Positions 4,630 to 44,139 of a stretch of DNA of 64,000 bases are shown in pieces (positions within the stretch are counted from its first letter, which is position 1; each line of letters opens with the position of its first letter). The stretch comes from Marsupella aquatica (Eukaryota; Plantae; Marchantiophyta): assembly GCA_973895155.1 (NCBI GenBank), contig OZ316898.1, positions 16,475,420 through 16,539,419 of the forward strand, in the 5' to 3' direction. The position numbers and the translations under genes were made by a program. The notes below the pieces were generated by a model. That model saw only the letters and a list, made by a program, of their open reading frames with translations, made no database searches and had not been told where the DNA came from.

Positions 4630-4636
4630 TATAAAA
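4630..4636 (+). promoter_or_regulatory. TATA box in LTR A
   Basis: TATAAAA ~360 bp into the LTR and ~100 bp upstream of the ATG at 4738. Confidence 0.5.
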
Positions 4637-4737
4637 AGGGAGCCGACCCTTTGGAGTGCACCAGTCCATCAGTCCACGTGCCAGCTTTGACCCCAGCTCT
4701 CTCGTTCGCTCTAAGTCGCCACTACTATCTCCTCTGA

Positions 4738-9009: not shown

Positions 9010-9156
9010 TGTTATGAATACACAAGATGATAGTAGTCAATAATCCCCACTCACTTCCATTATGCCAAGGACTTATATAGTCCAGAAGGGTTAACATGGT
9101 TGGGTTAATGTTAACCTATCCTATACTAGGGTTAAGTCATATTATGGGTTATAACA
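9010..9156 (-). repeat. Copia 3' LTR (147 bp)
   Basis: Identical to 14656-14802. Confidence 0.95.
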
Positions 9157-14640: not shown

Positions 14641-14655
14641 GTCGCGCTGATAACG
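14641..14655 (-). promoter_or_regulatory. Copia primer-binding site (half-tRNA-Ile type)
   Basis: CGTTATCAGCGCGAC abuts the 5' LTR and lacks the TGG needed to pair with a tRNA CCA end; resembles the complement of a tRNA-Ile anticodon arm. Confidence 0.7.
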
Positions 14656-14802
14656 TGTTATGAATACACAAGATGATAGTAGTCAATAATCCCCACTCAC
14701 TTCCATTATGCCAAGGACTTATATAGTCCAGAAGGGTTAACATGGTTGGGTTAATGTTAACCTATCCTATACTAGGGTTAAGTCATATTATGGGTTATAA
14801 CA
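14656..14802 (-). repeat. Copia 5' LTR (147 bp)
   Basis: Identical to 9010-9156. Confidence 0.95.
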
Positions 14803-19876: not shown

Positions 19877-21628
19877 TCAAACCTCAATTGCCCGTTCAGT
19901 AAGATCAGAAATTTCTGCTATGGTTAAAATAGGCTGCTTAACAATATCATCACTATCCAAGTTCAAACGGTAAACATTCTTAAAAACCCAAAGGATATGT
20001 TTGCAAGACATATAAGGTTTTCCATGCGAATGCCACTTGAAGAAATCTGGACAGGAACAACAAGGAAAAGAGCACAACTGAATCCAATATTTACTCGACT
20101 TACTTGGATTGTTTTCATGAGTAGCAATCAAAAACTGTGATCCCCATCCGTTTCCTTGGACGACTTTCTCAGAAGCTACGACCCTCATTTGTTCATCATT
20201 TGCAGCCTGAATCCTTTTCAAGAGTTCTCCTGTGAATTGAAACGTTGTCGAGTACCTTTTCCATTCCGTGTCTTCATTCGTCTATTTGGGTAGGTTACAT
20301 CAACCTTCTCTGGAAAAGAGTTCACGTCAATGCGAAGTTCCACCCGGTTTGGAGGAGAAACAATGCCATCTGGTTGGCAGTCCATGTAGTAGAGACCCTC
20401 AATTTGAAAACCCATCTGAATCAAGAAGTTGATTTCAGGAGGTGTTAATCTGTCCCTCGATGAACTTTCAGAGATTCAGGAACTAAAGGAGTTGGGAAAT
20501 CGACTTGCGACCCCTTGTTTTGTGACAAATATTGTTTGGACAGAAGTACAGAAGTTGAGTGTGCGGCGAAGTGATCCTCAAACCGTGGATGGCAACCCCA
20601 ACAACACCGCATGATCTTTTGTGATACCCAACTTCCTTGATGAAGTTCCTACACTCGTCTCTTCCAGAAATGGTTCGATCCATAGACCCATTGCAGACTG
20701 GACCATTTCCGTTTCCACACCTCCGGAAGTGCCAAGTCCCAAATGGTATGTCTACTTCATGTACAGCTGGTATTCGCCGAGGTGGAATATGAATTGGTTC
20801 CCCTGTACCAAGAGGAGATACAGCTTTTTCATGCAATGGCCTTGGAATTTCTTGAGTGTCATCAATCAACATATCAGTGCCATTTTCTTCATTATCAGAA
20901 AGAAGGATCACAACGGATGGGTCCAAAACAATTTCTGGACCTCTAGACGACATTGAGTGATGGAGTATTCCGGAAGTTTCCAAAACATCTTGCTTATCTT
21001 CCACCACTTTCACACTTCCAAAATCCAAATATAGATTTCTAGGATGTACCCCTTGGTCACTGCCTCGGTTCGCATTACCCTATCATGTCGATGAGAGTCT
21101 TCAGCACCAACTCTTGCCAAAGCAGGACCTTTTCACTTTCCAGACTTTGTGCAAAGATCCCCGTGAAGTGGTTGGGTACGATGGAAATCATACTTTGGAG
21201 ACGACTCAAGCAAAGATTTGATGCTTTCTCAAAAGCATCAAGAGATCCAAGAGTATCTGCATGCAAGTTCAAAAATGGTTGGTCCATGTCCCTTGTGACA
21301 TCCCTTAATGTACGCAGCAAAGGCAGCAATCTGTCCACCAACTCGATTTTGATCCAATTCACAAGCTTCCAACAATCCGATCTTCCTCTTCATTTGACAG
21401 GCTCTCATTGATGCATGTACAGATTCCGCTCCAGTACAATTTGGCATCAATGCTGACTCCTTTGTTGTTTGAGTCTGAAATCCAATACAAAAACAACATA
21501 AGGTTGTGTATCATGATGAAAGGCCCCAAACATAAACTCCCAATTTAACCAGAATGCTAGCGACCTCGCTAGCCAACTCAAGTGGTTTACTTCACTTACC
21601 AGTCTGAAGTAGTTTCCCCATTGTCGCC
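19877..21628 (-). pseudogene. MULE/SWIM transposase copy 2 (3' half), frameshifted; intron 21475-21599
   Basis: MPNCTGAES..GPTIFELA and YWIQLCSFPCCSC..CKH are homologous to copy 1; same intron position after RQWG. Confidence 0.75.
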
Positions 21629-24837: not shown

Positions 24838-27800
24838 TGTGGTGCGTCCCATGGCTCCCTAAACCCAAGAAACCCCCCCAGCGCAAGCCAATTCCCGCAG
24901 GTTTCTCGCTTGGCGAGGCCGTTTCCGCGGCTTAGCGGCATGGGATGCTACTAACCTCCTTCTACTACTACTATTAACATTTTACACACATATACTGGAT
25001 AGATCCTTCATCGGGTCATGAGATACGTAGCCAGCCTAATCTAGGCCTTCCCTTGTCTTCCCCTCCGTCTTGTTAGGTATGTTTGGATTCCGCTGCCGGA
25101 ATGATCCCCAATAGGCTTGGTTAAGCCGCTAAGACCTCTCTCAGCTCGACACATCCAACTCTCACTCCCCTGCTTACTTTCCTTCCTCTATTGGTTGATG
25201 TGGGCACTCTTCACACAAGTTAATGCGACACACAAATAGCAAAATGACTCCTTCTGACTGAGTCATACCATGCACTTGCCATACAAACAGTACATCTCAT
25301 ACACAAGCTCTGCGAACTAAGCCGTGAGGCCAACTCTATTCAGCTCTTAGGCATGAGGAAACATGAATATACACAAGGTCACGGTATGACTAACCGAGAG
25401 CTTCTCTTACTACTTGATCCCAGCCCGGCTGGTGCAAACTAAAAACTTGCTAAAGAAGAGGCCCTGAGCTCCCCGCTGCCCAGGTACTTATCCTGGTAGT
25501 GGATCCGCCTAATTCTTTGCAGCCTAAGCCTAATCTACTTAACTGGATCTACCTATGTACAGCGAGGCAGAAGTACAAGTGTTGCTCTTACCAGTGGAAC
25601 CGCAATCCCACTAAGCTAAGTGTCAGGGCCACCTCCTGGTCCTGATCCTAATCCTAAACTTAGAGATCTGAGCCCGCTCTGCCCACTCACGCCTCCTCCC
25701 TCCACGTCCGCCCTTCCTAAAAGGAACGACGCCCTTGCACCATCACGACATCGGTGGTGGATCCTCAATGGACGCCGCCAACGCTCCCTCCGCAACCACT
25801 GCCGTAGGTTTGTTCTCTGACAGATTACCTGCCCTTGACTGAGTCAACTCTCCATCGGCCTGACTGGGCCCACCCTCGGCTTCGGCCTCGGCTCGGAAAT
25901 CATTCTCGGCTACGGCCTCAGCCTCAGCTTCGGCCACGGCCTCCCCGGCCTGCTCAAGAGGTGGATCTGGGTTACCGGCCTCATTACTGAGTAGTTCGGC
26001 TTGGGTCGCGCCATCCCCACCTTTGGTGATAGCGGGATCTATTGCCGTGTTCATGCCGGAGGTTGGTACCGGTTTGAGTACGGCTTGAGAGGTCGAATAA
26101 CCTCCGGACCCCAAAGGTTTCTGCTTCTTCTTCTTCACTATCTCCATAGCCGGTTCCTTCCCCTTGCCGCCAACGTCCGGCACCGGGCCGTGTGTCATGG
26201 CTGGTCATTCGGCAATTACCACCCCGGGTAACTGGTTTGCCCCAACGGGAGATGGACCTGATGCAGCTAAGCATTTAAATACTGCGGCTTGTTTCTTCAG
26301 CCGCTCTATTTGGTTGTCGGCCCGCCGCTGTAGGTTCTCCATCTTCCTCGTGATTTCCTCCAACTCCTCCTGGGTCTCATCCAGGTCCTTACGTGCCTCC
26401 TCCAGCTCATTTTTGGCTTCCTCCAATTCCCTGTGGGCTTCCTCCAATTCCTTCTTGGTGGTAGCCCTCTCCTCCTGGGTTGCTCTTAGCTCCTTGTTGA
26501 GCTCTGCTACGACCTCAGACTCCATGTTATTCATCTTGGCATAAGTCTGGTCGAGCTGGGCATCCTTCTCCCGCAGGTCGGCCTTGAAGCTGGCTGTCAG
26601 GGATGCAAGCTCCTGCTGTAGCGCAATAATCCCTTGATAGGATTTCCCTAACTCGGCCTCCTTCTGCTCAAGGGCTCTACGGATGACCTCGAGCTCTCCC
26701 TTCAGCGCCCTCTCCCTTCTCTGAGTCTCCGCCGTGACCCGGTTGTTGACTGCTATATGGGCCTCCTCTGCGTCTCTCAGCTCCTTCTTCCATTTCTCCC
26801 TGTCCTTGATTGCATCGGCCAATTCTCCCTGGGTCTGAGTCAGTTTATCCTTGATAATCTGATTATCAGCCTACGCAGTGTCCAACTGCCCCTGCATGAT
26901 GTTCAGCTCATGCCACTTAATCCGCAGTTCATCTTGGGCTTTCTTGGCCGCCCTTAGATCTTCAATCTCGGCTTCCATCCTCCTAAGCCGCCGGATGACC
27001 TCGTCCTTCTTGCTTCTCTCTAAAGCCACCGCTTCTTCTAATTGGTGCTTCTCCAACTGCTCCCTATGGAAAAAGGGTCCTACCTCCAACTCCTCCCCAA
27101 AGATGTCGAGCGCAAGTTCCCCACATATCTCACCATACTCCATGGCTCTATTTTTAGCGTAGGTGGAGTAAGTAGAAGTAATCGGCATCGCCCATCGCGG
27201 CCTCTGCTCCCAAGCCGTCTTGCGGATCTCTTCAATTGTGGCTAGAGGTTTGCTTCCTTTGTCGGCTAGCCGCCTGATGTCCTCCGGCCAATCTCCTCCT
27301 GGCAAATCCTTTTCCCTAGCCAGGGCTGCCTTTTCTGCTTCCCTAACTCGCTCCTGAAATTCCTGTGCCGTCTGCTTTATGTCGTCAAAGCTCGGGGGAG
27401 CAACATCTGGTGGGGGAGACTCTGGGCTACTCTGCTGGTTGGGGTCCCCTCGAACTACCCTTGGAAGTGTGGGGATAAACCGGCCACTGGTCCTTACTCC
27501 TGGAACGTGATGGTCCGACCCATAGCCGGAGTTATCATGGCTATAGTCCTCCACTGCCTCCTCCACCTCTTGGACTTCCGGCTTCTCCCTCTCCTCTTCG
27601 CCGGTAGGAGCTTCAGGCAATTCTGCCTCAGATTCAGAGCTTGAGACTCACACATATATTCGAACACCCGGCTTGGATTCTGGCCTGATTCTCTCCTTAT
27701 TTCCGGTAAAGGGGTTTTCCCTTCTAAGTCTGCTTAGGTTGACCTCTGGGGCAGTGTCCTATATTGGTGCCGCTGCCGAAGCTTGCCGTCTTTTCCTTCT

Positions 27801-29502
27801 CCAGCATTTTCAGCAGATTCTGCATGCTTGGTTGCTGCATCGGCAAGTCTTCCTTCCTTGGCCTAAACACCTGCCCAATCGTAGGGCTAACAGGTGGTTG
27901 AGGCTTCTCTGCTACCGGCCTCGGTGCTGGAGCTTCCTCGGGTGCCCTTACCTGTAGGGGAAGTACTTGGGCAAAGGTCTGACCTCTCGCATATCGGCAC
28001 AACAGCGGCATGTGATAGCCAAGCCGCGACACGCTCCCCAGGCCGATTACCTGCTGCTCCTCCTTTAAGATCTTCTTCAATTGGTTGAGGAGGTACCCGT
28101 TGTAGTCCAGGCTTGGGTCTGGCCTCTCTACCAGATAGACCTGTGCCTTGCCGATCTCTGCCCTCGGCAAGTTACAATGCATGGTCACCCGCAAGAAGTC
28201 AATCATCTCTCCTATGTGCGGGTTGGTGCAGGTGTTCCTGAAGAAGCCATTCTTCGTTGATGGCCCGGGGAACGACCGGAACTCCTTGTCAGGCAAGGTC
28301 TTCCTGGTATCAACTTTGGTCTTATTGCCTATCGGCAAGCCAAACACTTTGGCAATCACCTTGGGAGTAAGATAGAAATCCTTCCCATATATCCTTGTGG
28401 AATTGGTCGCGGGTTCCCATGACCCCACGAATTCTAATAGGTCTAAATTCGGCACCTCCGGCTTCAGCCATGGTAATCTTACAAAGGCCTCTAAGCCGGA
28501 TCCGGCCATGAAGCCTTGGTACTTCTTGGTCTGCATGGCCGTAAAGCATGCATCCTCCTCCCGTGCAAAATGTAGTTGCACCTCCTCTGGTAGGGTTGCC
28601 GCCCAGCCCTTCCAGGTGTCATCCCTGGTTGGAATGGCATTGATGGGATCGTCCTCCTCCTCTTCGGCTTCTTCCTGCCTCCTACTCTATTGCTCGGCTG
28701 GCTTCTTTGGTGCCGCCGACCTCGTTCTTTTTGCCGGGGTGGCTCCATCGTTGACGGCTCCCTTCCTCTTCATTTTGGCTCCCGTGGATCTCTCTCCTAG
28801 CACGGTTGCCTTTGTCCACCCTCCGTGCTACCCTTCAACTCCCAGTGTATGTTGTTGCAGCATTTGATGGCTTCTTGGATGCCGACAACTCTATCTTCGC
28901 AAAACAAAAGATCGTCGAGCTGATTTGAAGTAGGAGTCCACAAGAACTCGGCCTTGATAAGTTTGCCTCCTAAGAAAGCCGTCTTCTGCAGCTCCCACAA
29001 TCGAGCGAGCTCCTACCATTCTCGAGCTGCCCTTTCTGATTCTTCGTCCTCGTAAGTCTTGATGTACTCAGTTGCCCGTTCGAACAGGCATCCCCAGAAA
29101 TGTGTCGCTTGATTGATGTTGCTCATACCCTCCTTAGGTCGATCGTCGGTATCTACTCTCTCCCCGAGTGCTTGCCTAAGCAGCTGACAGTAGTTGGCCT
29201 CCCGTAGTCGTCTGCCTAGTTCGTGCTCGCAAATGAGCCACCATTCCCTGCAAGCGCTCCTTACCCCTCTCCTCTTCCGGTTCTTCCTCCCGTTGATCCT
29301 TCCTAGCCGCCAACGCTTAGCGCGCCCTAACCCTAATCTTGTTTTCACCCCCAGCGTCCTTACCTCCAGCCTCGGCCCGGGTTCCATAGTCGCCTCTAAT
29401 TGTTTATATTTTCCTTGTTTTGTCCCTATACTAAGGTATTTCTAGGGTGCACTCCTGCTTTACCCACTTAACTGGCCGAGTGATTCCTGGCTAGGCATCA
29501 CA
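24838..29502 (-). repeat. 3' LTR of element B (~4.67 kb)
   Basis: PPT AAGTGGGGAGCTA then TGTGATGC at 29502; ends GCACCACA at 24838 (7/8 inverted match); the same end precedes the PBS in the 5' copy. Confidence 0.85.
25743..29387 (-). pseudogene. LTR-embedded accessory gene of element B (ancestrally one ORF of ~1,200 codons)
   Basis: Several breaks are open in copy D or the 5' LTR and vice versa (TAG/CAG at 29013 and 26871, TGA/GGA at 26205, TGG in B where D has TAG at 24229); terminal stop shared with the 5' LTR copy. Confidence 0.8.
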
Positions 29503-32500
29503 TAGCTCCCCACTTAATTGTGAAGCGTCCTCACGAACAACTTCATCTTCGTCCATATAGTATTTCTTGAGGCGGTCATAATGGATGCGAACTGGATACA
29601 CTTCTCCCGTAATGTTGGCCAATTGTACGGAGCCATTGGAGAACTTCATGGTTACTCTAAAGGGTCCTAACCAGCGAGTGTAAAGCTTACCTGGAAACTT
29701 ACTATACCTACTATCATAAAGTAATACAAGATCACCGGTGTGAATACTAACTGCTTTCAACTTTTTATCATACTGTTGTTTCATGGTTTTTTGTCTATAT
29801 TCTATTCTCTCAGCTGAAATCATTCTTGCCTCCTCTAAAGCTTCTAATCTATATTCTCGCTCCTTCAGGCTCTCCTCCGCTGAGGCTCTTTCCTCAATTG
29901 TAACTTGAATTGTAGGGATCTCAAGTTGCATGGGTACCAGAGCTTCTTGTCCAAAGGTTAAGAAAAAGGGTGTATGTCCGGTAGTGGTTTTATAGGCTAA
30001 ATTATAAGCAAAAACAGCAGCAAATAATTTATCATCCCAATCGAGTTTGTTCTGAGCTACTGTCTTGTTCAATATCTTTCCTATAATTCTGTTTGCTCGT
30101 TCTGTCAACCCATTTGCCTTTGGATGGTAGGGAGTAGTAGGCCTATGTCTAACTAAATACTGCTCATTTAAACGACTAATTATATCATTCAGAAAATGGG
30201 TTCCTCTATCACTAACTAATTCTAGGGGTGCTCCATACCTGGTGAAGATCTGCTCATACATGAATCTAGCCGTAGTAATTGCATCATCCTTCGTGGTTGG
30301 TCTGGCCTCTACCCATTTAGTTGCATAATCCGTAGCCAGGATTATGTACTTGTTTTGTCGAGGGTGGGTCAGTGGTTTCAGAGGTCCGATGTAATCAATA
30401 CCCCACTTCTCAAATGGTGCCAGAGGTAGAATAGGGTGCAGTGGATGTCTGGTGGACGCCCTTGGTCCTCCCGCTCGTTGACAAGGATCGCATTGTTTGA
30501 TAAACTGATAGACATCCTTGTGCAAGGTGGGCCACCAGTAACCGACATTTAATATCTTTTTAGACGTGGTTACTGGGGCAAAATATCCGCCGGCTTCTTC
30601 TCCATGCATAGCCCATAAGACTTGTTTTACCTCTCCCTTTTCTAAACACCTTTGAATAGTGCCGCTGATTCCATACCTGTGTAGTACACCCTTAATGTAC
30701 TGATACTGTCTGACCTTCCGCAAAAAGACTGCGGCTTGTTCTCGGCTTAACCCTGGCTGTAATCTGGAAGTGCTGAGAAAATGTAAAATCTCAGGGTACC
30801 ATGTATCAGCTATTTCCACAACGAATAGTTCCTCGTCGGGGAATCGATCATCGATGCAATCCGTGGCAGGTTCACCTGTGATTCTTGAAAAGAAGTCGGC
30901 ATTGGCGTGTAACTTTCCCGGCTTGATCCTCAGCTCATAGTCAAACTCCTGTAATAGCAAAATCCATCTTGCTACTCTGCCTGTAAGGTCCGGCTTATTG
31001 ACTAGGTACTTCAAACTTTCATGATCGGTATGAAAGATTACCTTGTACCCTAGTAAATAATGCCTAAACTTTTTACAGGAATAAATGACTCCTAATGCTT
31101 CCCTCTCTGTGGTGGAGTAGTTCTGTTCGGCATCGGCAAGCTGACGGCTTGCGAAGTATATGGGATGGTCCCTTCCTTTCTCATCCAACTGATTTAGTAC
31201 TGAGCCGATACAGAAGCCCGAGACATCTACAAAAACATGAAAATCTTTGTTCCAGTCCGGTGCTATCATGACTGGGGCCTCTACTAACATCTGCTTCAAT
31301 TCTACCACCGCTGTGACTCGTTCGGGTGTGGGTTCGAAGTCTGCTCCTGCCTTGAGCATGTTGGTTAATGGTAAAGCTAGTTTGGCAAAATCCTTGATGA
31401 ACCAGCGATAGTAACCAATGCATCCCAGGAAGGATCTTACATCCTTTATGTTCTTAGGTTGCATGATATCTAGCCATATTGCTAGCTTACCTTTGTCAAT
31501 CTCAATGCCCTTCCTTGATACCTTGTGACCTAGTAGCACCCCCTCGGTTACTGCAAAGAAACATTTATCTGGGTGTAACTTGAGACCTACCTCTCTGCAT
31601 CTCATGAAGGTTTTCCTGAGATATTTAGCATGTTTCGATGCCTTCCCGAATACTGCAAAGTCATCAATGAAGATTTCCATGAACTTTCTCAAGTAATCAT
31701 GAAAAATGTTTACCATCAATCGTTGGAACATAGCTGGTGCGTTGCAGAGTCCAAACGGCATACGATTGAAGACATAGATCCCCCATTCCGTGATGAAGGC
31801 CGTCTTAATTTGGTCTTCCTGCCGAATCCTGATTTGGTTATAACCAGAGTACCCATCCATGAATGAATATAGTTCATGACTGGCTACCATGTCTAGTACC
31901 ATATCAGTAAAGGGTAAGGGAAAATGGTCTTTTAACGTCGCTTCATTCAGTTTCTTGTAATCCTGACAAACCCGGATCTTGGGTTTACCATCGGGTCCAG
32001 CTTTCTTGGGAACTATCACAATTGGAGACACCCAGTCTGAATGCAGGACTGGAGTGATGAATCCAGCTTCCACTAGTTTGTCAATTTCCGTTTTGACCAG
32101 CAGGGAATACTTCGGGTTCATCCTTCGAATTGGTTGTCTGAATGATTTGGCTCCTAACATGAGATCAATTCGATATTCCCCTAATGTTGGATCTACTCCC
32201 TTTAGATCTTGGTGACTCCATGCAAACACATCCTGAAATTCAATTAGTAAGTCACTGATCTCTTTCTCAAGCTCAGGTGCTAGGTCTCTCCCTAAGTTTA
32301 GTTCCCTCCCTTCTCCTAAGTCGAGCTTCCGGTATTGCCGTGCTTGGATCATATTAATCTGCTTCTTCAAATTTGGGTCCAGCTCGGCTTCTAGTCTCTC
32401 CAATCTCATACCTCCATAAACTGGAATCTCGGCTGTACTAGCCGAATCAGTTTCTCCCTTGGTGCCCACAGACTGTCCCCTTGCCGGCCTATTCGGTTTT

Positions 32501-32757
32501 GAATTGGTAGTCAGTTTTCCTTCCTGCCTCGGCTCTGGATTCTGTCTGTGCATCTCATCCACCTCTTGCTCCTGAGGGTCAGGCCGCTGTGCTCTCCCGA
32601 CTTCTAATAGGGCCTCAATTTGTTCTGCCACTGTAATCAGCCTGTATGCCGATCCCTTGGTATTTAATTCCTTGCCGATGATCGATGGCGTTGTGGACCC
32701 TGTCGGCTCTGCCACAACGCCTGCAGAAAATCCACTATCCCTGCTACTGCTCCCCAC
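29491..32757 (-). CDS. pol of element B (RT, RNase H, integrase), open 1088 codons, probably reached by -1 frameshift
   Basis: FMDGYSGYNQI, FIDDF, FASRQL, WGIDYIGP, SDRGTHF and WLGPF motifs; GHF-to-GYF change in the integrase zinc finger. Confidence 0.93.
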   Translation of the reverse strand: MGSSSRDSGFSAGVVAEPTGSTTPSIIGKELNTKGSAYRLITVAEQIEALLEVGRAQRPDPQEQEVDEMHRQNPEPRQEGKLTTNSKPNRPARGQSVGTKGETDSASTAEIPVYGGMRLERLEAELDPNLKKQINMIQARQYRKLDLGEGRELNLGRDLAPELEKEISDLLIEFQDVFAWSHQDLKGVDPTLGEYRIDLMLGAKSFRQPIRRMNPKYSLLVKTEIDKLVEAGFITPVLHSDWVSPIVIVPKKAGPDGKPKIRVCQDYKKLNEATLKDHFPLPFTDMVLDMVASHELYSFMDGYSGYNQIRIRQEDQIKTAFITEWGIYVFNRMPFGLCNAPAMFQRLMVNIFHDYLRKFMEIFIDDFAVFGKASKHAKYLRKTFMRCREVGLKLHPDKCFFAVTEGVLLGHKVSRKGIEIDKGKLAIWLDIMQPKNIKDVRSFLGCIGYYRWFIKDFAKLALPLTNMLKAGADFEPTPERVTAVVELKQMLVEAPVMIAPDWNKDFHVFVDVSGFCIGSVLNQLDEKGRDHPIYFASRQLADAEQNYSTTEREALGVIYSCKKFRHYLLGYKVIFHTDHESLKYLVNKPDLTGRVARWILLLQEFDYELRIKPGKLHANADFFSRITGEPATDCIDDRFPDEELFVVEIADTWYPEILHFLSTSRLQPGLSREQAAVFLRKVRQYQYIKGVLHRYGISGTIQRCLEKGEVKQVLWAMHGEEAGGYFAPVTTSKKILNVGYWWPTLHKDVYQFIKQCDPCQRAGGPRASTRHPLHPILPLAPFEKWGIDYIGPLKPLTHPRQNKYIILATDYATKWVEARPTTKDDAITTARFMYEQIFTRYGAPLELVSDRGTHFLNDIISRLNEQYLVRHRPTTPYHPKANGLTERANRIIGKILNKTVAQNKLDWDDKLFAAVFAYNLAYKTTTGHTPFFLTFGQEALVPMQLEIPTIQVTIEERASAEESLKEREYRLEALEEARMISAERIEYRQKTMKQQYDKKLKAVSIHTGDLVLLYDSRYSKFPGKLYTRWLGPFRVTMKFSNGSVQLANITGEVYPVRIHYDRLKKYYMDEDEVVREDASQLSGELCDA

Positions 32758-35657
32758 TTAGCCATTTCATCCAATTGACTTACATCTTTTACTTCCTCCG
32801 GAATTCCAGCTAAAAAGGTGGATTCTATTGTAAAGCAGTCCTCGACCTCTTCGTCTTCTTCTTCCAAGTCACCTTTCATTGGTTCTTGCCATAACCCGCT
32901 GGGGGGTACCTCTGGTCCAAAGACACTTTCTTCGGTTTGGTCAACGAGGCATTCTAACCAACGTACTTCATCGGCTGACTCCAGTCCACTGTCGTACCCA
33001 TCTACTTCCCTTATGCTTTTCCTATGGTCATCCTTAGTGTCCCAGGATACCGTGATAGAGGGGGTCCCGAAAGTGAACTGCTTTTTACCCCAATCTTCTA
33101 TTACCTCGGCTAGGTACAGCCATGGCCTGCCAATTAATAGCCGAAACGACGTAGGGTTTACCGGCTTCATTACTACATAGTTAATGCTAAAGAAGATACC
33201 TCCTATCTTTGTCTTGATGCCGGTTAACACCCCCGTGGGAATGACCTGATATCCATTGGCCATGTTCAACACTCTTCCAGTCATCTCCGGTGTTAGACCC
33301 CATCCTTTTGCTGTTGAATCAATCATGATACATACCCCGGATCCTCCATCAATGGGTACCCGTAGTAATATTTCTCCTTGAATCATTAATGGTAAAGCTG
33401 GGGCTCCTTGATCTTCCTCTATCATCAGCACGTCGGATTTGGTTGCTACCTTGGGTAATCTCGGCTTGCCGAGAATAGCCTTCCTTAATTGCTTCCGGAA
33501 GTACGGGCTATTTTTCAATAGTTGACCAACTGTTGCCGAGACTCTAGAGTCTAGCACATCTTTGGCCAGGTCATAGGGAACAATCGGATTCTCCTCCGGT
33601 GGTGTTTCCTTCTGGGCTTTGGCCTGTTTTGCCACACTAGTCTCTACAGCTGTTGGATCCTCCGAAGCAAACAATGCTTTTGCTCGTTTCACATCCTTGG
33701 CTATGGCTTCGGTATTCTCCAGGGTTTCTAATTCTCTTAGTTGTTCCTTAACACTAGCCGTAACAGAGGGGTAGAACAACTTAGGATGATCTCGATTGAA
33801 GTCGCTATCTTGTGAAGGATTGGGTTCGCTGGTGGGCTCATGGCTTACCTGTATTGCCGGAGCCCTCCCTTCTCCTTCCGTTGATGTTGACGAAGAGTCG
33901 ATCTTTTCTTCCTGGACCTTCCCTTTATTTTTGGCCAGCCCATCCCACCTTTCCTTCCTTCTGGTAGATCGAGTAGAGACCCGGTAGCAATCATGATCTA
34001 AATCCTCTTCTGAGAAGGTTGATAGGGCTTCGGCCTCATCATCAGATGGTACGAACTCTGCCTCGGCATCCTCTTGCCATCCTAGTTCGATGTGGTTGAT
34101 TTGAACTCCTCCGGGGGTAGTACCTGGCGGTAAGACCTTAACTGGCAAGAGCTTATGATTTGCGGCCAGGCCTGCCACCCAAGTAGGACATTGCCCTAGC
34201 ATATGACCTTCTTGTCGGCATCCCATACATAGCTGAGCTGGTTGTCCATCACCCTGTTTGCGTGCATTCGGGCACTCTCTAGCAAAATGGCCAGGTTGAC
34301 CACAGTTATAGCATGTCGCAAATCTCTGCACATTCGGCCTAGGAGGTACTGACGGGTTCTGAATAATCCGAGGATACATCTCTCCCGGATTGTTCCTTAA
34401 TCCTGACCACAGAGATGCAGGTCTGTTGGATAGGTCTCGTGCTCCAGTCTCACTGATGCCAAAAACACTATCAGCGGCATCTCCTAGAAAGTACTCTACT
34501 TCTCCCTGACATGGTCTGATCTCGGCCACATGCCGAACATGATTAGTATTCAGTTTAGGACACGCATCTTTATGGTGTCCGGTTTTATAACATAAGGCAC
34601 ACCATACAGAGCTATCCTCCTGTACTACCTTCTTCTTCGGCTTTACCTCTGCAATTATAGCCTTAAGTTGCTCGGTAAGGGCTACGATGTTATCTGGTGG
34701 CTTAGCCTCCAGCTTGACTTTCGTCTTCCCTCTCCTTCTGCCCTTCCTTTTCCTAGTTTTTTCTTCTTCAGAACTAGAAGATGACTCACTCTTGCTACTT
34801 CCACTATCCGAGCTTGAGTTATCACTTCTTGACTTCTTAGAATGTTTCTTCTTCTTATCCTTTTTCTTATGGGGTGATCCTTCCTCCGATGAGGAACTCT
34901 CAGACTTAAGCTGTTTCTTTCGGCTTGTGATATCTTCATTAATGTATAATTGAATATCCTTAATTGCCTCGGCCAAGGTCTCCGGGTTCTCCTTCCTAAT
35001 TGCAAAACTCATCTTCTGTGGCAAAGCATTCACCAACCATTGAAGTTGCATACCTTCAGATGCATTGGTCTTTGTACGTCTTACCAGTTTTTGAAAGCGT
35101 TGCAAGAACTTCCTGAAGGATTTGTTCTCCTTGAACCGAAGTCGTCCCAACTTCAGCACTGCTAGTTCTGAAGTTCCAATGGGTCGAAACTCCTTAACAA
35201 AGAGTGTTTTGAAGATATCCCAGATGGCTTGATCTTCCACATCCAATGCTCTGTACCAAGGCCTAGCCTCACCCTTGAACAGGCCGGGAAGAATTTGCAT
35301 CTTGATGGCCGATTCTCCATTTGCTGCAGCGGTTCCCTCGAAATCATCCAACCATTCGTCCGGATCCTCATCTCCTCTCCCATGAAATGCCTTGTAATGA
35401 ATGCGCGACCGTTGGCTCAGTCTGGTCCCTGGCCTCTCGTCTGGCCGTGCCTCTGGTTCCCCCATGTCGGTTGAAGACTCACTTCTCCTTACCAACTCTT
35501 CTTCTGGTATGTCTTCTTCGATGCCACTTCCAGCTTCGGAGCTACCAGCTCTTTCTGCCCCTCTCAGTCGTTGTGTATCATACCACCCGGCGAGCTGCTG
35601 CAGTCGAGCTCTCTCTCGTTGAATCACTCTTTCTTCCCTCGGCGTAAGGTCAGTCAT
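32664..35657 (-). CDS. gag plus aspartic protease of element B (997 aa)
   Basis: Retrotransposon gag core (F.GRGDEDPDEWLDDF), three CCHC knuckles, PIDGGSGV protease, LIGRPWL. Confidence 0.92.
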   Translation of the reverse strand: MTDLTPREERVIQRERARLQQLAGWYDTQRLRGAERAGSSEAGSGIEEDIPEEELVRRSESSTDMGEPEARPDERPGTRLSQRSRIHYKAFHGRGDEDPDEWLDDFEGTAAANGESAIKMQILPGLFKGEARPWYRALDVEDQAIWDIFKTLFVKEFRPIGTSELAVLKLGRLRFKENKSFRKFLQRFQKLVRRTKTNASEGMQLQWLVNALPQKMSFAIRKENPETLAEAIKDIQLYINEDITSRKKQLKSESSSSEEGSPHKKKDKKKKHSKKSRSDNSSSDSGSSKSESSSSSEEEKTRKRKGRRRGKTKVKLEAKPPDNIVALTEQLKAIIAEVKPKKKVVQEDSSVWCALCYKTGHHKDACPKLNTNHVRHVAEIRPCQGEVEYFLGDAADSVFGISETGARDLSNRPASLWSGLRNNPGEMYPRIIQNPSVPPRPNVQRFATCYNCGQPGHFARECPNARKQGDGQPAQLCMGCRQEGHMLGQCPTWVAGLAANHKLLPVKVLPPGTTPGGVQINHIELGWQEDAEAEFVPSDDEAEALSTFSEEDLDHDCYRVSTRSTRRKERWDGLAKNKGKVQEEKIDSSSTSTEGEGRAPAIQVSHEPTSEPNPSQDSDFNRDHPKLFYPSVTASVKEQLRELETLENTEAIAKDVKRAKALFASEDPTAVETSVAKQAKAQKETPPEENPIVPYDLAKDVLDSRVSATVGQLLKNSPYFRKQLRKAILGKPRLPKVATKSDVLMIEEDQGAPALPLMIQGEILLRVPIDGGSGVCIMIDSTAKGWGLTPEMTGRVLNMANGYQVIPTGVLTGIKTKIGGIFFSINYVVMKPVNPTSFRLLIGRPWLYLAEVIEDWGKKQFTFGTPSITVSWDTKDDHRKSIREVDGYDSGLESADEVRWLECLVDQTEESVFGPEVPPSGLWQEPMKGDLEEEDEEVEDCFTIESTFLAGIPEEVKDVSQLDEMAKWGAVAGIVDFLQALWQSRQGPQRHRSSARN
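32687..32733 (-). promoter_or_regulatory. Candidate programmed -1 frameshift signal
   Basis: G GAU UUU in the gag frame (32733-32727), 5-nt spacer, perfect 10-bp stem GGCGUUGUGG/CCACAACGCC, inside the gag/pol overlap. Confidence 0.75.
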
Positions 35658-35705
35658 TACCTACGCTTCCTTTCTAACTTCATATCTCACGGCTTAAGAA
35701 ATGCC

Positions 35706-35722
35706 CCCTCCATCTAGCGCCA
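35706..35722 (-). promoter_or_regulatory. Primer-binding site of element B (probably tRNA-Asn)
   Basis: TGGCGCTAGATGGAGGG 4 nt from the LTR end; matches the plant tRNA-Asn 3' end as I recall it with one mismatch. Confidence 0.7.
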
Positions 35723-35726
35723 AAAA

Positions 35727-37776
35727 TATGGTGCGTCCCATGGCTCCCTAAACCCAAGAAACCCCCAGCTCAAGCCGATTCCCGCAGGTTTCGCGCTTGG
35801 CGAGGCCGTTTCTGCGGCTTAGCGGCATGGGACGTTGCTAACCTCCTTCTACTATTACTATTAGCCTTTTACACACATATACTGGACAGATCCTTCATCG
35901 GGTCATGAGATACGTAGCCGGCCTAATCTAGGCCTTCCCTTGTCTTCCTCTCCTTCTGGTTAGGTATGTTTGGATTCCGCCGCCAGAATGATCCCCAATA
36001 GGCTTGGTTAAGCCGCTAAGACCTCTCTCAGCTCGACACATCCAACTCTCACTCCCTTGCTTACTTTCCTTCCTTCTGGTTGATGTGGGCACTCTTCACA
36101 CAAGTTAATGCGACACACAAATAGCAAAATGACTCCTTCTGACTGAGTCATACCATGCACTTGCCATACAAACAGTACATCTCATACACAAGCTCTGCAA
36201 ACTAAGCCGTGAGGCCAACTCTATTCAGCTCTTAAGCATGAGGAAACATGAATATACACAAGGTCACGGTATGACTAACCGAGAGCTTCTCTTACTACTT
36301 GATCCCAGCCCGGCTGGTGCAAACTAAAAACTTGCTAAAGAAGAGGCCCTGAGCTCCCCGCTGCCCAGGTACTTATCCTGGTAGTGGATCCGCCTAATTC
36401 TTTGCAGCGTAAGCCTAACCTACCTAACAGTAATCTACCTGCCCGAATCTACCTATGTACAGCAAGGCAGGAGCACAAGTGTTGCTCCTACCAGTGGAAC
36501 CGCAATCCCACTAAGCTAAGTGTCAGGGCCGCTCCTGGTCCTGATCCTAATCCTAAACTTGGAGATCAGCGCCCGCCCTGCCCACTCACGCCTCCTACCT
36601 CCACGTCCGCCCTTCCTAAAAGGAACGACGCCCTTGCACCGTCACAACACCGGTGGTGGATCCTCAATGGACGCCCCCAATGCTTCCTCCGCAACCACTG
36701 CCGTTGGTCCGTCCTCTGACAGATTACCTGCCTCTGACCGAGTCAACTTTTCATCGGCCTGACTGGGCCCACCCTCGGCTTTGGCATCGGCTCGGGGATC
36801 ATTCTCGGCTACGGCCTTAGCCTCGGCTTCAGCCATTGTCTCCCCGGCCTGCTCAAGAGGTGGATCTGGGATACCGGCCTCATTACTGAGTAGTTTGGCT
36901 TGGGCCGCGCCATCCCCAACTTTGGTGATAGCGGAATCTATTGCCGTGTTCATGCCAGAGGTTGGTGCCGGTTTGAGTACGGCTTGAGGGGTCAAATAAC
37001 CTCCGGACCCTGAAGGTTTCCGCTTCTTCTTCTTCACTATCTCCACAGCCTGTTCCTTCCCTTTGCCGCCAACGTCCGGCACCGGGCCGTGTGTCACGGC
37101 TGGTCCTTCGGTAATTACCACCCCTGGTAATTGGTTTGCCCCAACGGGAGATGGACCTGATGCAGCTAAGCATTTAAATACTGCGGCTTGTTTCTTCAGC
37201 CGCTCAGTTTGGTTGTCGACCCGCCGCTGTAGGTTCTCCAACTTCCTTGTGATTTCCTCCAACTCCTCCTGGGTCTCATCCAGGTCCTTACGTGCCTTCT
37301 CCAGCTCGTTTTTGGCTTCCTCCAATTCCTTATGGGCTTCCTCCAATTCCTTCTTGGTGGTAGCCCTCTCCTCCTGGGTTGCTCTCAGCTCCTTGTCGAG
37401 CTCCGCTACGACCTCAGACTCCATGTTATTCATCTTGGCATAAGTCTGGTCGAGCTGGGCGTCCTTCTCCCGCAGGTCGGCCTTGAAGCTGGCCGACAGG
37501 GACGCAAGCTCCTGCTGTAGCGCAATAATCCCTTGATAGGATTTCCCTAACTCGGCCTCCTTCTGTTCAAGGGCTCTCCCTTCAGCGCCCTCTCCCTTCT
37601 CTGAGTCTCCGCCGTGACCCGGTTGTTGACTGCTATATGGGCCTCCTCTACGTTTCTCAGCTCCTTCTTCCATTTCTCCCTGTCCTTGATTGCGTCGGCC
37701 AATTCTCCCTGGGTTTGAGTCAGTTTATCCTTGATAATCTGATTATCAGCCTGCGCTAAGTCCAACTGCCCCTGCA
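35727..37776 (-). repeat. Truncated 5' LTR of element B, including the coiled-coil end of the accessory ORF (36642-37776)
   Basis: Colinear with 24838-26896 with a few percent mismatches and a 19-bp deletion near 37577. Confidence 0.9.
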
Positions 37777-39384: not shown

Positions 39385-42300
39385 GTGACCGCTGCCTCCC
39401 CTATGGTGCCTCAGATTCCTCTCGTTCAGCGTTGTCTCCGTCAGTGCCTCATGTTGGGTCAGTCTGGTGAGTTCTCGCGGGCTGCGCACTTGTTGGTTCC
39501 CCTTTCGCCTGCCTCATCCTTCGAGGAGACCATTGGCGCCCTACGGTCTCTTCATCCCCCTTTGTCCTTTGGGATCCCTGGATTTGTTGGGAGTTTCTTG
39601 CTTGAGCCTGAGTTCTCCCTCTCTCGGGAGGTCTTCATTTCATCTGCCCTGTCTCTCCGCTGGTGGCCTGTCTGGGATGATGTTTGAGCATTTGAGGGAT
39701 TGCTTCCTCCCGGATGACTCGGCTTTTGGATTCTCTCAGCTTTTTTAGGTTTGTGCCCATGTTGTCGGGGGTCGTATTCCTCCTATTGTGGCGCGGCTCC
39801 TAGGTGCTAGTTGGCTTTTGGCCATGGCCAAGGTGCTGGATGAAGTTAGGCCCCCTAGCCAGTGGTGAGGTTCTTTATCATATGGTTAGTCATTGTGTTT
39901 GCCTTCAGACTTGGTCACCGTTTGCGTCTCACCTTTCCCCTCATCAGTTTGGCATGGCCACCCCAGGGGGTTGTGAGAGTGTCATGCATGGCTTGCGTGC
40001 TATCGCATACCTCCAGCCAGATTGGGCAATGATCTAGGTGGGTGTGGCCAATGCCATCAACACTGTTTCACGACGGGCCATTTATGAGGAGCTTTGGGAT
40101 GTCGGTGGTGTGATTGCATCCCTCATTCCTTTTGTTTGCGCCTTCTATGGGTCTCTTGCCCTTTTGTTCTACCCTGTCCGTCTCAGCCCTAGCTCTTACA
40201 CGACTATTCTTTCTGAGTTGGGCACTCGACAAGGAGATCCTATTGGGGGGTTTTTATCTGGCATCGCACACTTTCGGACTCTCCAGGCTTCTGCGGCTGC
40301 TTTTTCTGGGTGCATGTTCTGTCCATTGCGGATGATACCCATCTTGTGGCACCAACATCAGTTTTGGGGGATGCCTATATTCATTTTGTGGACCAGTTGT
40401 CCCTTCTTGGCCTCTCTGTCCAGCCCTGCAAGTGTGGGGTCTGGTCTCCGCATCCCCTCGCAGACTCTTTCTCCCTGCCCCTGCTCGGTATCCCCATTCG
40501 GACTTAGGGCATCCGGGTTCTTGGTGTACCTTTTGGGGGAGAGGCTTTTGTTCGTGAGTTTTTGCAGGCTGCATTATCTCAAGATGTCCTTCACATTGAT
40601 TAGTTGGTGGCCCTCGGAGACGTCCAAATTGCTTTCATGATTTTGGTCCAGTGCTTTGTTCAACGCCCTTTGTACCTTCTTCGGACTTTGCCTCCCACAC
40701 CTATGTTTCTGTCTCTACTCTCTTCATTTGACACCACCATGATGGAGGCTTTTAGTCACCTTATTGGTCCTGGGGCCTTTGACGAAGAGGACGGCTCTTA
40801 TACTACTCGGCAGGCTTCTTTGCCCCCGTCCGGTGGGGGCATGGGTGTTTCCTCAGCTGTGGTCACTGCTCCCTGTGCCTTCCTTGGTTGTTGTTGGGCA
40901 AAGGGGGGCCCTGCTCTGGCCTCCAGGTCCATTGTGGATCTTCGACCCATCCTTTTTGACCTTGTCATTGGGGTGGAGGATGGCAGTCTTCCTTTCCAAG
41001 TTCAGCTCCACCACGCTGGGTCATTACTACCCGAGGTTGTGCAGGTTGCTGTTCCCGCTTTTGTGGAGTTTGTCTTTGATAGTCCGGATCATGTTTAGTA
41101 GGTGATATCCGACCGCATGCACTGTCATTCCCTTTCTAGCATGCTCTCCGATGCACCTTCGGATCTCTGTTTGGGCCCGCCTCTTATCTTGCTCGGGTTT
41201 TGGTTTGGGTGCATGGCTTTTTGCGAGTCCTCTCTGGGCCCCCTTCCGCATGAGCTCCTTCCTCTTCACCACATCTATGCACCTTCGTCTGGGTCTCCCT
41301 CACCCTTGCCTCCTTGGCCAACCCTCTTGTGTCTGTGGGGCTTCTTTGGACCCATCCGGCATTCATATTCTTAGGTGTAGCCACGGGAGTGAGCGGACGG
41401 TGACACATGATGACATTCAGGATGTGGTTGCTGCCATTGCCCGGGACTTTGGTTACCATGTTGCTACGAAGCCACGACATGTCCTTCCCTCCAGGAATGG
41501 CATTCCAGACCTGCGTTGAGCTGACCTGGTTTTTTCTTGGGCAGGTGTTTGTTCCCTTGGTGATGTGGTGGTTGCCGATCCTACTGGTGGGGGTAATGTT
41601 GCTGTGGCTGTCCATGTTCCTAGACATGCTGCTGCCAAGGCAGCTCGGCTCAAGGAGGAGGCCTATGCGGTTCTTTACCCGGGGGATCTCTTCTTCCCTT
41701 CACCATTGAGGCCTTTGGTGCTCTCCACCCTCGGTTTGACCACTTCCTTTGGGCTTGTGTTGTGTTGTGTTTTGTATTGAGCGGAGTCTCCTCCTGTTTT
41801 TGTCCTCACGACCTTCTTTCGACATAGGGTATCTATGGCACTTATAGGGGCCCAAGCTTTCACTATTTTTTGTAGGGCCAAGGTAGTTGGTTTTAGGGGC
41901 TCTCGACAAATTCCCCTCCGTGACCCTCCTATGCGGTTTACTCCAGAACTCTACCAGGCTTTTCAATTTACCGCCTAGTGGGGTTTTTGGTTCATTGTTT
42001 GCTTCTTAGTCTTTTGGTTTTTCTGTGTTACTCCTTGACTTTGTGGGTCTCGTTGGTCTTCTTGGGGGCTTTTCCTTCCCCTCCCTTTATTGGGTCCTTT
42101 TGCCTTTGGGACCATGTCTCCTTTGGCATTCTTGTCTTTTTGGCAGTGTGATATATATATAAAAACATGGCTTTGAGGGGTCTTCTTGGGGGCTTTTCCT
42201 TCCCCTCCCTTTATTGGGTCCTTTTGCCTTTGGGACCATGTCTCCTTTGGCATTCTCGTCTTTTTGGCAGTGTGATATATATATAAAAACATGGCTTTGA

Positions 42301-42535
42301 GGGGTCTTCTTGGGGGCTTTTCCTTCCCCTCCCTTTATTGGGTCCTTTTGCCTTTGGGACCATGTCACCTTTGGCATTCTAGTCTTTTTGGCAGTGTGAT
42401 ATATATATAAAAACATGGCTTTGAGGGGTCTTCTTGGGGGCTTTTCCTTCCCCTCCCTTTATTGGGTCCTTTGGCCTTTGGGACCATGTCTCCTTTGGCA
42501 TTCTCGTCTTTTTTGGCAGTGTGATATATATTTAA
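39385..42535 (+). mobile_element. Degenerate non-LTR retrotransposon, CRE/SLACS-like (RT, CCHC, restriction-like endonuclease)
   Basis: NAINTVSR, GTRQGDPIG and IADDTH RT motifs; CVCG..HILRC; H.D.IQD; D..DVVVADPT; ends in a (TA)n/A tail. Confidence 0.75.
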
Positions 42536-42551
42536 AAGCATGGCTTTGAGG
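42055..42551 (+). repeat. Tandem array, 4 x 124-125 bp
   Basis: The ATGG of CATGGCTTTGAGG recurs at 42167, 42291, 42415 and 42540. Confidence 0.95.
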
Positions 42552-42951
42552 TAGATCAAGAGAAGCTGACACTATGATTTCAGAAGTATTCTCCTAGACC
42601 TCAACTCTAGCTTCTCTGAGCAAATTATAAGTAAGATTGGAGCTAATGACGATGCATATCGAGAAATCGGAGGTGTACCAAAAAGTGTTTAGTGTTGTGT
42701 ACTCCTGGCCTGTGCGAGGGAATTAGTATAGGTGGTGCTGTTCGATGCTTTACGCGAGGGTATTTCCTTTGTCTTCGTCGTACCCTGGTTTAGGTTTTGC
42801 ACTTCTGCTTCGTTTGCTTCCTCCGGAGGTTGTTCGTCTTTCCATCCCGGTCCGTTTGGCATTCCTGCGTTTCCGGGATCGTAGCAAATTCCGCTTTGGG
42901 CCATCTAGAGGATTTCATCGTGCTACCGATAGAGAGGAAGGGAGTGCTGCC

Positions 42952-44139
42952 ATGCCTCCTAAGGCTGGCGCGAAGGGCAAGGTCCCGGTCGCGGAGCGCC
43001 CGATCCTGGGCCGATTTTCCTCCCATTTGAAGATCGGAATCGTCGGCCTACCAAATGTCGGAAAATCAACTCTCTTTAACACTCTCACCAAGCTCTCGAT
43101 CCCAGCTGAGAACTTCCCCTTTTGTACGATTGAGCCGAATGAGGCTCGCATCAACATCCCAGACGAGCGCTTCGACTGGCTGTGTCAACTCTTTAAACCT
43201 AAGAGTGAGGTCCCAGCTTTCCTCGAAGTGCACGACATTGCAGGATTGATTCGAGGTGCGAACGAAGGAGAAGGACTAGGAAACGCCTTTCTATCCCACA
43301 TCCGAGCTGTGGACGGTATATTCCATGTCGTAAGGGCATTTGATGATGCAGATGTGATCCATGTCGAGGACACCGTCGATCCTATTAGGGATCTAGAAGT
43401 CATACATCAGGAATTACGTCTCAAGGATATTGAGTTCATGCAGAGGTCCGTGGAGGATGCAGAGAAAGGTTTGAAGCGAAGCCCTAATGACAAACAGCTT
43501 AAAGCTGAGTTAGAGTGTTGTCATAAGGTGATTGACTGGCTCACGGAAGGGAAGGATGTCAGACTGGGCGACTGGAAGGCAGCAGAGGTGGAGTTCCTCA
43601 ACACGTTTCAGTTGTTGTCTGCTAAGCCTGTTGTGTACTTGGTCAATCTCACAGAAAAGGACTATCAGCGGAAGAAGAACAAGTGGCTTGCAAAGATTCA
43701 CACATGGGTGCAGGAACATGGGGCCGACCCTATCATTCCTTTTAGTGGTTTACTTGAATCTAAGCTTGCCGATATGACACCTGATGAGGCAGCGGCATAT
43801 TGCAAACAGAATGAGCTTGTAAGTGCGCTGCCCAAGATCATTAAGACCGGATTTACTGCAATTCACCTCATTTACTTCTTCACGAGCGGCCTAGACGAGG
43901 TGAAGTGCTGGCAGATCAGGAAACAATCCAAAGCTCCACAGGCTGCTGGGGCGATTCACAGTGATTTTGAACGGGGTTTCATCTGTGCGGAGGTCATGAA
44001 ATTTGAAGATCTCAAAGAGCTTGGAAGTGAAGCAGCTGTGAAGGCTGCCGGAAAGTACAAACAGGAGGGGAAAAACTACGTGGTGCAGGACGGTGACATC
44101 ATTTTCTTCAAGTTTAATGTATCAGGAGGTAAAAAGTGA
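42952..44139 (+). CDS. OLA1: Obg-like ATPase 1 (YchF), intronless, 395 aa
   Basis: [30 protein letters not shown] domain ending [13 protein letters not shown]; the ATG at 42952 gives the eukaryote-type MPPK start. Confidence 0.96.

What the first reader, a model, noticed from the sequence alone, without database searches (positions are those of the whole stretch)
32664..32757. Candidate -1 ribosomal frameshift located after the protease
Seen: the open gag-PR and RT-RH-INT frames overlap. In the overlap, G GAU UUU is correctly phased, followed by 5 nt and a perfect 10-bp stem with a 15-nt loop. Loop GCCGA could pair with downstream UCGGC to form a pseudoknot. Slippage leads exactly into the pol frame. 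Known: GGAUUUU is the shift site of dianthoviruses and umbraviruses; in most frameshifting LTR elements the shift precedes PR. Inference: PR is made 1:1 with Gag while RT and integrase are substoichiometric.
Basis: partly seen in the sequence, partly recalled or inferred. Interest (0 to 1): 0.75.

Follow-up and report, generated by a model that had tools for sequence, protein, structure and literature searches.

The report
Gypsy frameshift placed after the protease
In this jumping gene, likely from a liverwort, the shell-plus-protease gene overlaps the copying-enzyme gene one base out of step, and a slippery sequence followed by a predicted RNA hairpin, both kept across sister copies, likely makes some ribosomes slip back one base to reach the enzymes, as bird retroviruses do, although splicing at the same spot is not excluded.

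Summary
Observation confirmed on the minus strand. A Ty3/gypsy element has a 998-codon Gag-zinc knuckle-protease frame overlapping a 1,088-codon RT-RNase H-integrase frame by 94 nt, in the -1 frame. G_GAU_UUU is in phase, followed by 5 nt and a perfect 10-bp stem (0 of 20,000 shuffles).

The offset is a family trait. Among 242 contigs from four runs, no indel and no change in the heptamer, either stop or the 3' arm was listed. Pol-silent sites varied at 4 of 6 unpaired and 0 of 8 paired positions. The pseudoknot is unproven (5% by chance).

- The same bases form the best splice acceptor in gag-pol, with a phase-matched donor 152 nt upstream, so Ogre-like splicing is a real rival.
- A copy of the polypurine tract lies just upstream, at the element's centre.

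The closest sister families keep protease and RT in one frame, so the arrangement is likely derived. Gag-protease split from RT is known (alpharetroviruses, Ogre, Retand); a -1 overlap at this point in a plant element I did not find in print. No RNA data were available. Verdict: -1 frameshift 0.65, splicing 0.2; new variant of a known kind.

The parts
32664..35660 (-). ORF1: Gag - CCHC zinc knuckles - aspartic protease - acidic linker; stop TAA 32666-32664
   Evidence: Retrotrans_gag and zf-CCHC; protease: PF09668 E 0.0098 (below cut-off), 21 of 69 aligned relatives hit Asp_protease_2, profile hits Ddi1 protease structures at E 0.002
29491..32757 (-). ORF2 in the -1 frame: linker - RT - RNase H - integrase; first Met at aa 69
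32727..32733 (-). slippery heptamer G_GAU_UUU, in ORF1 phase
   Evidence: no variant listed at 1% or more among 242 contigs
32722..32726 (-). 5-nt spacer; its first three bases vary between copies, its length does not
32687..32721 (-). perfect 10-bp stem (32721-12 with 32696-87) and 15-nt loop; predicted stimulator
   Evidence: one stem variant (32718, a CpG site, 1.3-3.5%); silent-site test
32674..32678 (-). TCGGC, possible second stem with loop GCCGA 32707-32703 (unproven pseudoknot; loops 4, 6 and 8 nt)
   Evidence: common variant at 32703 keeps a G-U pair
32749..32760 (-). exact 12-nt copy of the 3' polypurine tract, about 135 nt from the midpoint of the internal region (candidate central PPT); contains the TAA that closes the pol frame upstream
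32721..32872 (-). rival reading: 152-nt candidate intron (donor AAG|GTGACT at 32872, acceptor TGCAG|G at 32721, both phase 1)
   Evidence: no such joint among 1,277 DNA contigs
29505..29516 (-). 3' polypurine tract, followed by TG at 29502
35705..35722 (-). primer-binding site beginning TGG, 6 nt after the LTR end; tRNA type (Asn) is recalled, not tested
35729..37776 (-). remaining part of the 5' LTR, ending CA; 93% identical to 24840-26896
24840..29502 (-). inferred full 3' LTR (TG...CA, about 4.66 kb), carrying open frames
   Evidence: boundaries inferred from the PPT and the repeat end

Best explanation
This is a Ty3/gypsy retrotransposon family whose Gag-protease frame overlaps the RT-RNase H-integrase frame in the -1 position, and ribosomes likely cross over by a programmed -1 slip on G_GAU_UUU, predicted to be stimulated by the 10-bp hairpin 5 nt downstream. 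Shown: the two frames, the phase, the spacing, the hairpin sequence and their persistence across copies. Inferred: most ribosomes run 21 more codons to the TAA at 32666 and release Gag-protease; a minority pause at the hairpin, re-pair GAU/UUU onto GGA/UUU and make Gag-protease-RT-RNase H-integrase. Protease would then be about equimolar with Gag, and RT and integrase minor, as in alpharetroviruses. Inferred history: the signal arose in this family just downstream of a central polypurine tract, from an ancestor with a single frame. The extra loop pairing (pseudoknot) is possible but not needed.
For: Cassette beyond chance: 0 of 20,000 shuffles; the only one of 5 in-phase heptamers that opens a long -1 frame. 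It fits the published definition: X_XXY_YYZ with GGA tolerated, spacer 5-9 nt, stem-loop or pseudoknot (PMC3542737 passages). Family conservation: 242 contigs laid on 32655-32775 (132, 107, 2 and 1 from runs X1, X2, X5, X6) list no indel and no change in the heptamer, either stop, the 3' arm or TCGGC, while 13 other positions vary. One X3 contig spans 32601-32875 without gaps. Heptamer plus stem: 1 of 27 sites variable against 11 of 48 comparable sites (p 0.026; 12 of 70 and p 0.07 if the PPT and second stem are counted as background). Sites silent in the pol frame vary at 0 of 8 paired and 4 of 6 unpaired positions (p 0.015; 0 of 10 against 4 of 11, p 0.055, when extended to the gag stop). 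These tests were chosen after seeing the data. The three larger length variants seen (90, 3 and 12 nt) all keep frame. Pol is open over 1,088 codons; it would stay open in 3-10% of simulations at 2-3.5% neutral change.
Against: No translation or RNA evidence. The site doubles as a splice acceptor with a matching donor. Five contigs (X1 1, X2 3, X5 1) match the heptamer, 5' arm and loop but stop at 32699 and go on with sequence like the linker behind the stem, so they appear to lack the 3' arm; four of them belong to a divergent subfamily whose frame offset is unknown (loose ends; 14 of 21 rows shown). No two-sided compensatory change was seen in the stem; it is invariant, not covarying. The second stem's 3' strand is kept in 4 divergent X1 contigs with a replaced linker but reads TGGGC in 2 X3 contigs. 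The closest sister families have no offset. Logan contigs drop rare variants, only 57% of X2 was read, and contigs are not independent events.
Confidence: 0.65

Rival explanations
1. Ogre-like partial splicing: a 152-nt intron (32872-32721) is removed from some transcripts and fuses Gag-protease in frame to pol. The U-run and CAG are the acceptor, and the hairpin keeps splicing partial by masking the AG.
For: The donor at 32872 scores best (8 of 9 consensus letters, recalled consensus) of 39 GT sites in 33300-32700. The acceptor at 32721 is the only TGCAG|G and the only six-pyrimidine-N-YAG site in 6.2 kb of gag-pol. Both are phase 1. CAG is invariant and the spacer variants stay pyrimidine-rich. 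The contigs lacking the 3' arm keep the acceptor-side sequence. Ogre joins the same two ORFs by splicing (PMC6317226 passage).
Against: The candidate intron is 64% purine and 24% U, is an open frame and contains the PPT copy. The G of the AG is the first pair of a stem predicted at probability about 1.0. No 152-nt skip among 1,277 DNA contigs, where a 90-nt skip was seen in all four runs. It does not explain the invariant, in-phase GGA or the 5-nt spacing. A divergent set of contigs appears to have GGG at the donor's place (loose ends at 32877; their frame offset is unknown). Ogre ORFs are separated by a spacer and do not overlap.
Confidence: 0.2
2. The offset is an inherited frameshift mutation in a family that amplifies on RT and integrase supplied by single-frame relatives; the hairpin serves packaging or plus-strand synthesis beside the central PPT.
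For: Sister families are single-frame; the hairpin lies 28 nt after the PPT copy; parasitic plant families exist (BARE2, PMC3735527 passages).
Against: Pol is fully open (3-10% expected under neutrality); the common unpaired variants after the site are silent in the pol frame; an in-phase heptamer at canonical spacing would be coincidence (8.8% for phase alone).
Confidence: 0.07
3. Pol is made separately, by re-initiation or internal initiation at Met69 (32553) or from a subgenomic RNA.
For: ORF2 has AUGs at aa 69, 117 and 136, ahead of the RT core.
Against: Leaves heptamer and stem unexplained; the pol frame stays open and shows silent variation upstream of Met69; an RT without Gag needs another route into the particle (established knowledge).
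Confidence: 0.05

Closest known systems
Alpharetroviruses (Rous sarcoma virus, MAV): Gag-Pro / Pol -1 frameshift
   Same: Protease in frame with Gag and made in equal amount (PMC3185560 passages); RT reached by a -1 shift in overlapping ORFs (PMC3542737 passages).
   Different: This is a plant Ty3/gypsy element with no env seen, a G_GAU_UUU site and a long acidic linker; a convergent layout, not a relative.
Ogre (Tat clade)
   Same: [quoted passage not shown]
   Different: Ogre ORFs are separated by a spliced spacer of about 274 bp and carry an extra RNase H; here the ORFs overlap and no extra RNase H was detected.
Retand (Tat clade)
   Same: Break after the protease in 49% of intact elements.
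   Different: Retand has a single in-frame stop, not a frame change; it has the extra RNase H.
Selgy and Tcn1 (lycophyte and moss gypsy clades)
   Same: Overlapping ORFs in plant gypsy elements (GAG:o:PROT-RT-RH-INT, 65% and 60%).
   Different: Their break lies before the protease.
Umbravirus and dianthovirus -1 sites (pea enation mosaic virus RNA2, G_GAU_UUU)
   Same: Same heptamer, active on plant ribosomes (PMC5009743 passages).
   Different: Those need a long-range partner kilobases away; here no loop complement of 8 nt or more exists downstream in the element, and the stop is 21 codons on, not next to the site.
Bryophyte non-chromovirus gypsy elements (Phygy-like)
   Same: RT-RNase H groups at 100/100 with two Calypogeia fissa proteins, P0058 and a second family in the window, sister (98/94) to a clade resembling a Ceratodon protein.
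   Different: No named Phygy reference was available; long LTR with open frames and a different PBS from the table's description; relatives have protease and RT in one frame.

Membership tests
Programmed -1 ribosomal frameshift (canonical) | Overlapping ORFs, second in the -1 frame, closed upstream | tested here: met
   no indel listed among 242 contigs
Programmed -1 ribosomal frameshift (canonical) | X_XXY_YYZ heptamer in zero-frame phase (GGA tolerated) | tested here: met
Programmed -1 ribosomal frameshift (canonical) | Stimulatory structure 5-9 nt downstream | tested here: met
   predicted 10-bp stem at 5 nt, conserved at silent sites; absent in 5 contigs; not probed
Programmed -1 ribosomal frameshift (canonical) | H-type pseudoknot | tested here: inconclusive
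   5 bp, 4.9% by chance; kept in some divergent contigs, altered in others
Programmed -1 ribosomal frameshift (canonical) | Measured transframe product that depends on heptamer and structure | not testable with these tools
   needs reporter, ribosome profiling or mass spectrometry
Ty3/gypsy LTR retrotransposon | Order Gag-PR-RT-RH-INT; LTRs, PBS, PPT | tested here: met
Tat clade (Ogre, Retand) | Additional archaeal-type RNase H domain | tested here: not met
   no such Pfam hit in either ORF at E 0.1
Tat clade (Ogre, Retand) | ORFs after PR separated by a spacer (Ogre) or one stop (Retand) | tested here: not met
   ORFs overlap by 94 nt (table)
Ogre-type spliced expression | Spliced junction joining Gag-PR to RT | not testable with these tools
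   signals present; needs RNA reads
Phygy | RT-RH-INT clusters with Physcomitrium Phygy references | not tested
   no named reference sequence among the tool results; the tree shows a bryophyte clade only
Phygy | tRNA-Trp PBS and 4-bp NCGN target duplication | tested here: inconclusive
   PBS recalled as Asn-type, not tested; 5' LTR incomplete, so no target duplication can be read
Phygy | Short element (7.7-10 kb) without extra ORFs | tested here: not met
   at least 12.9 kb, with extra open frames in the inferred LTR

The most novel reading that the evidence does not exclude
One short patch does double duty: it is both the -1 slip site and a usable splice acceptor. The hairpin drives slippage while hiding the AG, and the central polypurine tract inside the would-be intron penalises any spliced genome. 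Within one bryophyte gypsy clade the Gag/Pol throttle would then have been re-invented at different places: before the protease in the moss branch, absent in sister liverwort families, after the protease here. That would be a natural series for how a programmed frameshift is born.
Probability: 0.12. Interest if true: 0.72.

Novelty: new variant of a known kind. Interest (0 to 1): 0.47.

Why it matters
How plant LTR retrotransposons set the Gag-to-enzyme ratio is known for few elements, mostly through splicing (PMC12786077 and PMC3735527 passages). A 2003 survey, as summarised in PMC5009743, found only +1 cases in plants. The REXdb table lists no lineage with GAG-PROT overlapping RT-RH-INT as its prevailing layout. 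A conserved -1 signal after the protease would add a third plant solution at that joint, beside Ogre's intron and Retand's stop, convergent with alpharetroviruses. It is family-specific and has single-frame sisters, so its origin can be reconstructed. The 100-nt cassette is directly testable in a reporter.

Tried and rejected
No whole genome is held for this window. No RNA holder was listed; this says nothing about expression or splicing.

The metagenome scan returned 80 distant loci (35-45% identity), mostly broken copies; the intact ones (L014, L029) are single-ORF. Of 18 whose PR-RT linkers were screened, 4 had scattered heptamer-plus-stem hits and none shared this cassette. Viral contigs gave nothing. 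The 5 matches in prokaryote genomes equal the 4.3 expected by chance, lack the 3' arm and have no retroelement protein. Rfam found nothing near a gathering score.

The perfect GTAAGT donor at 32783 was rejected: it is phase 0 and its bases differ in most copies. P0260 (46% over 92 aa, ending KWGA...DLQRML at the matching place) could show the same break in a distant relative, but no DNA is available and it may be a decayed copy; not counted. No full-length close relative of ORF1 was found in the protein searches.

Gao et al. 2003 and Steinbauerova et al. 2008 are not held; I saw them only as cited. 'Not found in print' rests on nine paper searches. Of the REXdb supplements I read the lineage table whole and snippets of one other file. 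Its per-element table was not seen and could hold single elements with this layout. Earlier scan notes by sequence and place were empty.

Full report
THE ELEMENT. The finding lies in a minus-strand Ty3/gypsy LTR retrotransposon. ORF1 (35660-32664, 998 codons) carries Gag and CCHC knuckles; ORF2 (32757-29491, 1,088 codons) carries RT, RNase H and integrase, with no chromodomain or extra RNase H hit. The protease is in ORF1: the window's own stretch hits PF09668 weakly (E 0.0098), 21 of 69 aligned relatives hit Asp_protease_2, and their profile matches Ddi1 protease structures. The catalytic Asp is aa 771. A PBS follows an LTR end at 35729, and a PPT at 29516-05 precedes TG at 29502. In an RT-RNase H tree of 36 rows, chosen by me from 123 proteins and 2 translated ORFs, the element groups at 100/100 with two Calypogeia fissa proteins, P0058 and a second family in this window. 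The host is therefore likely a liverwort (inference).

THE OBSERVATION. An in-phase heptamer alone is common (1,769 of 20,000 shuffles of the overlap), but with a 10-bp stem at 4-9 nt it never arose (0 of 20,000). It is the only one of 5 in-phase heptamers in ORF1 that opens a long -1 frame. The stem dominates folding (z -2.99; pair probabilities 0.90-1.0). The loop-TCGGC pairing is 5 bp, arises in 4.9% of shuffles and competes with a small hairpin in the loop.

FAMILY TEST. Seven public runs hold the region, none on record as RNA; I laid six of them. On 32450-33050, 1,277 contigs from X1-X4 showed 120 variable sites, of which 40 were shown. On 32655-32775, 242 contigs from X1, X2, X5 and X6 showed 13 variable positions at 1% or more and no indel. 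None falls in the heptamer, the two stops, the 3' arm or TCGGC. Three are in the spacer, five upstream, two in the unpaired loop and one just after the stem. One is at 32703 (34-46%, A to G, keeps a G-U pair in the proposed second stem), and one is in the 5' arm at a CpG site (1.3-3.5%, breaks a pair). Sites silent in the pol frame vary at 4 of 6 unpaired and 0 of 8 paired positions (p 0.015; 4 of 11 against 0 of 10, p 0.055, to the gag stop). These are post hoc tests on related contigs, so they are supportive, not decisive. Length variants of 90 nt, 3 nt and 12 nt (loose ends) keep frame. Single-base gaps listed at 32563, 32630-32 and 32776-84 lie outside the overlap and are minor or mutually compensating.

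RESULTS AGAINST. Five contigs keep the heptamer side but appear to lack the 12 nt holding the 3' arm (14 of 21 loose-end rows shown). The second stem's 3' strand is kept in 4 divergent contigs whose linker is replaced but altered in 2 others. No two-sided compensation was seen.

SISTER FAMILIES. P0058 (68% in pol) runs Gag to RNase H in one ORF. The window's second family (180-4279, +) has protease and RT in one frame, with two stops. Calypogeia models P0245 and P0059 together show one frame through the linker, though gene models may hide introns. The landmark AKxGA is in the RT frame in those families and in a third remnant at 38464, but in the Gag-protease frame here, about 25 nt before the heptamer. 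Twenty moss-like proteins of 1,316-1,402 aa have protease and RT in one ORF without Gag, and 15 of the 20 begin within 15 residues of the same motif, which suggests a break before the protease there (inferred; no DNA). The -1 offset after the protease is thus likely derived and family-specific.

THE SPLICE RIVAL. The heptamer's U-run and the spacer read TTTTCTGCAG|G, the only such acceptor-like word in gag-pol. The best of 39 donor candidates lies 152 nt upstream in the matching phase (consensus recalled). Removal would join ORF1 to ORF2, as Ogre does (PMC6317226 passages and lineage table). Against it: the stretch is purine-rich (64%) and U-poor (24%), the AG is tied into the stem, no DNA contig shows the 152-nt skip, and it leaves the invariant in-phase GGA and the 5-nt spacing unexplained. 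I weigh frameshifting 0.65 and splicing 0.2. RNA reads would settle it.

CENTRAL PPT. AKxGA is the reading of a 12-nt exact copy of the 3' PPT at 32760-49 (1 hit in 300 shuffles of 6.2 kb), about 135 nt from the midpoint of the internal region. The second family has its own variant at both places (1166 and 4257). Central PPTs are known in HIV-1, Ty1 and EVADE (PMC7197481 passages). This explains why the upstream TAA is conserved, so that stop is not independent evidence for recoding.

COMPARISON. It works like the alpharetroviral layout (PMC3185560 and PMC3542737 passages), using a heptamer known from umbraviruses (PMC5009743 passages). It is not Ogre or Retand (no extra RNase H; the ORFs overlap), and Phygy membership was not testable. 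The REXdb table lists overlaps only before the protease (Tcn1, Selgy and, among copia, SIRE) and splits after it only as a spacer or a stop. Nine paper searches found no plant element with a -1 overlap after the protease. Gao 2003 and Steinbauerova 2008 could not be read, and REXdb's per-element table was not seen. For the other papers in those searches I saw listings only. Two unchecked notes of this scan describe similar -1 signals in Copia elements of other genomes; they are leads, not support.

VERDICT. A real, family-conserved recoding junction after the protease; most likely a programmed -1 frameshift with a hairpin stimulator; pseudoknot unproven; splicing not excluded. New variant of a known kind; interest 0.47.

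Noticed in passing
window 32760-32749 (-) and 29516-29505 (-); 1166 and 4257 (+); 38464 (+): Family-specific exact copy of the 3' polypurine tract in the protease-RT linker, at the centre of the internal region; it changes together with the 3' PPT between two families, and the matching peptide AKRGA is in Calypogeia proteins. Candidate central PPT in a bryophyte gypsy clade.
   Followed up: partly
window 29502-21630 (-) and 37776-35729 (-): Inferred 4.66-kb LTR with sense open frames (320, 258 and a 360-aa coiled-coil type; no confident Pfam hit for the two scanned), followed by a second, partial, 82-87% identical copy in tandem; only 2 kb of the 5' LTR remains.
   Followed up: partly
window 180-6840 (+): Second, related gypsy family (64% in pol), protease and RT in one frame with stops at 939-941 and 1134-1136 (likely decay; a Retand-like programmed stop was not tested), followed by a 700-aa ORF 27% like the 320-aa ORF.
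   Followed up: partly
window 13466-9496 (-): Copia element with 148 nt of identical repeats (9009-9156, 14655-14802) whose integrase-RT frame is also offset by -1 after the protease, at 12687-12645, inside the HCRLGH motif; no slippery heptamer seen by eye, so probably a break in this copy.
   Followed up: no
P0001, P0004, P0006-P0015, P0018, P0020-P0026: Moss-like sister clade: protease-pol ORFs without Gag, 15 of 20 starting at the same place about 100 aa before the protease region, suggesting a recoding point before the protease.
   Followed up: partly
window 32936-33027: In-frame 90-nt deletion variant in the acidic linker, present as DNA in all four runs laid.
   Followed up: no
window 42727-44139 (+): Uninterrupted 470-codon frame that looks like an Obg-like ATPase (name recalled, no call), next to a 124-bp tandem repeat at 42055-42551.
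   Followed up: no
window 17372-19024 (+) and 19886-21534 (-): Two related frames (33-41% identity) facing each other, with a SWIM-like Cys/His motif (label recalled); possibly DNA-transposon remnants.
   Followed up: no
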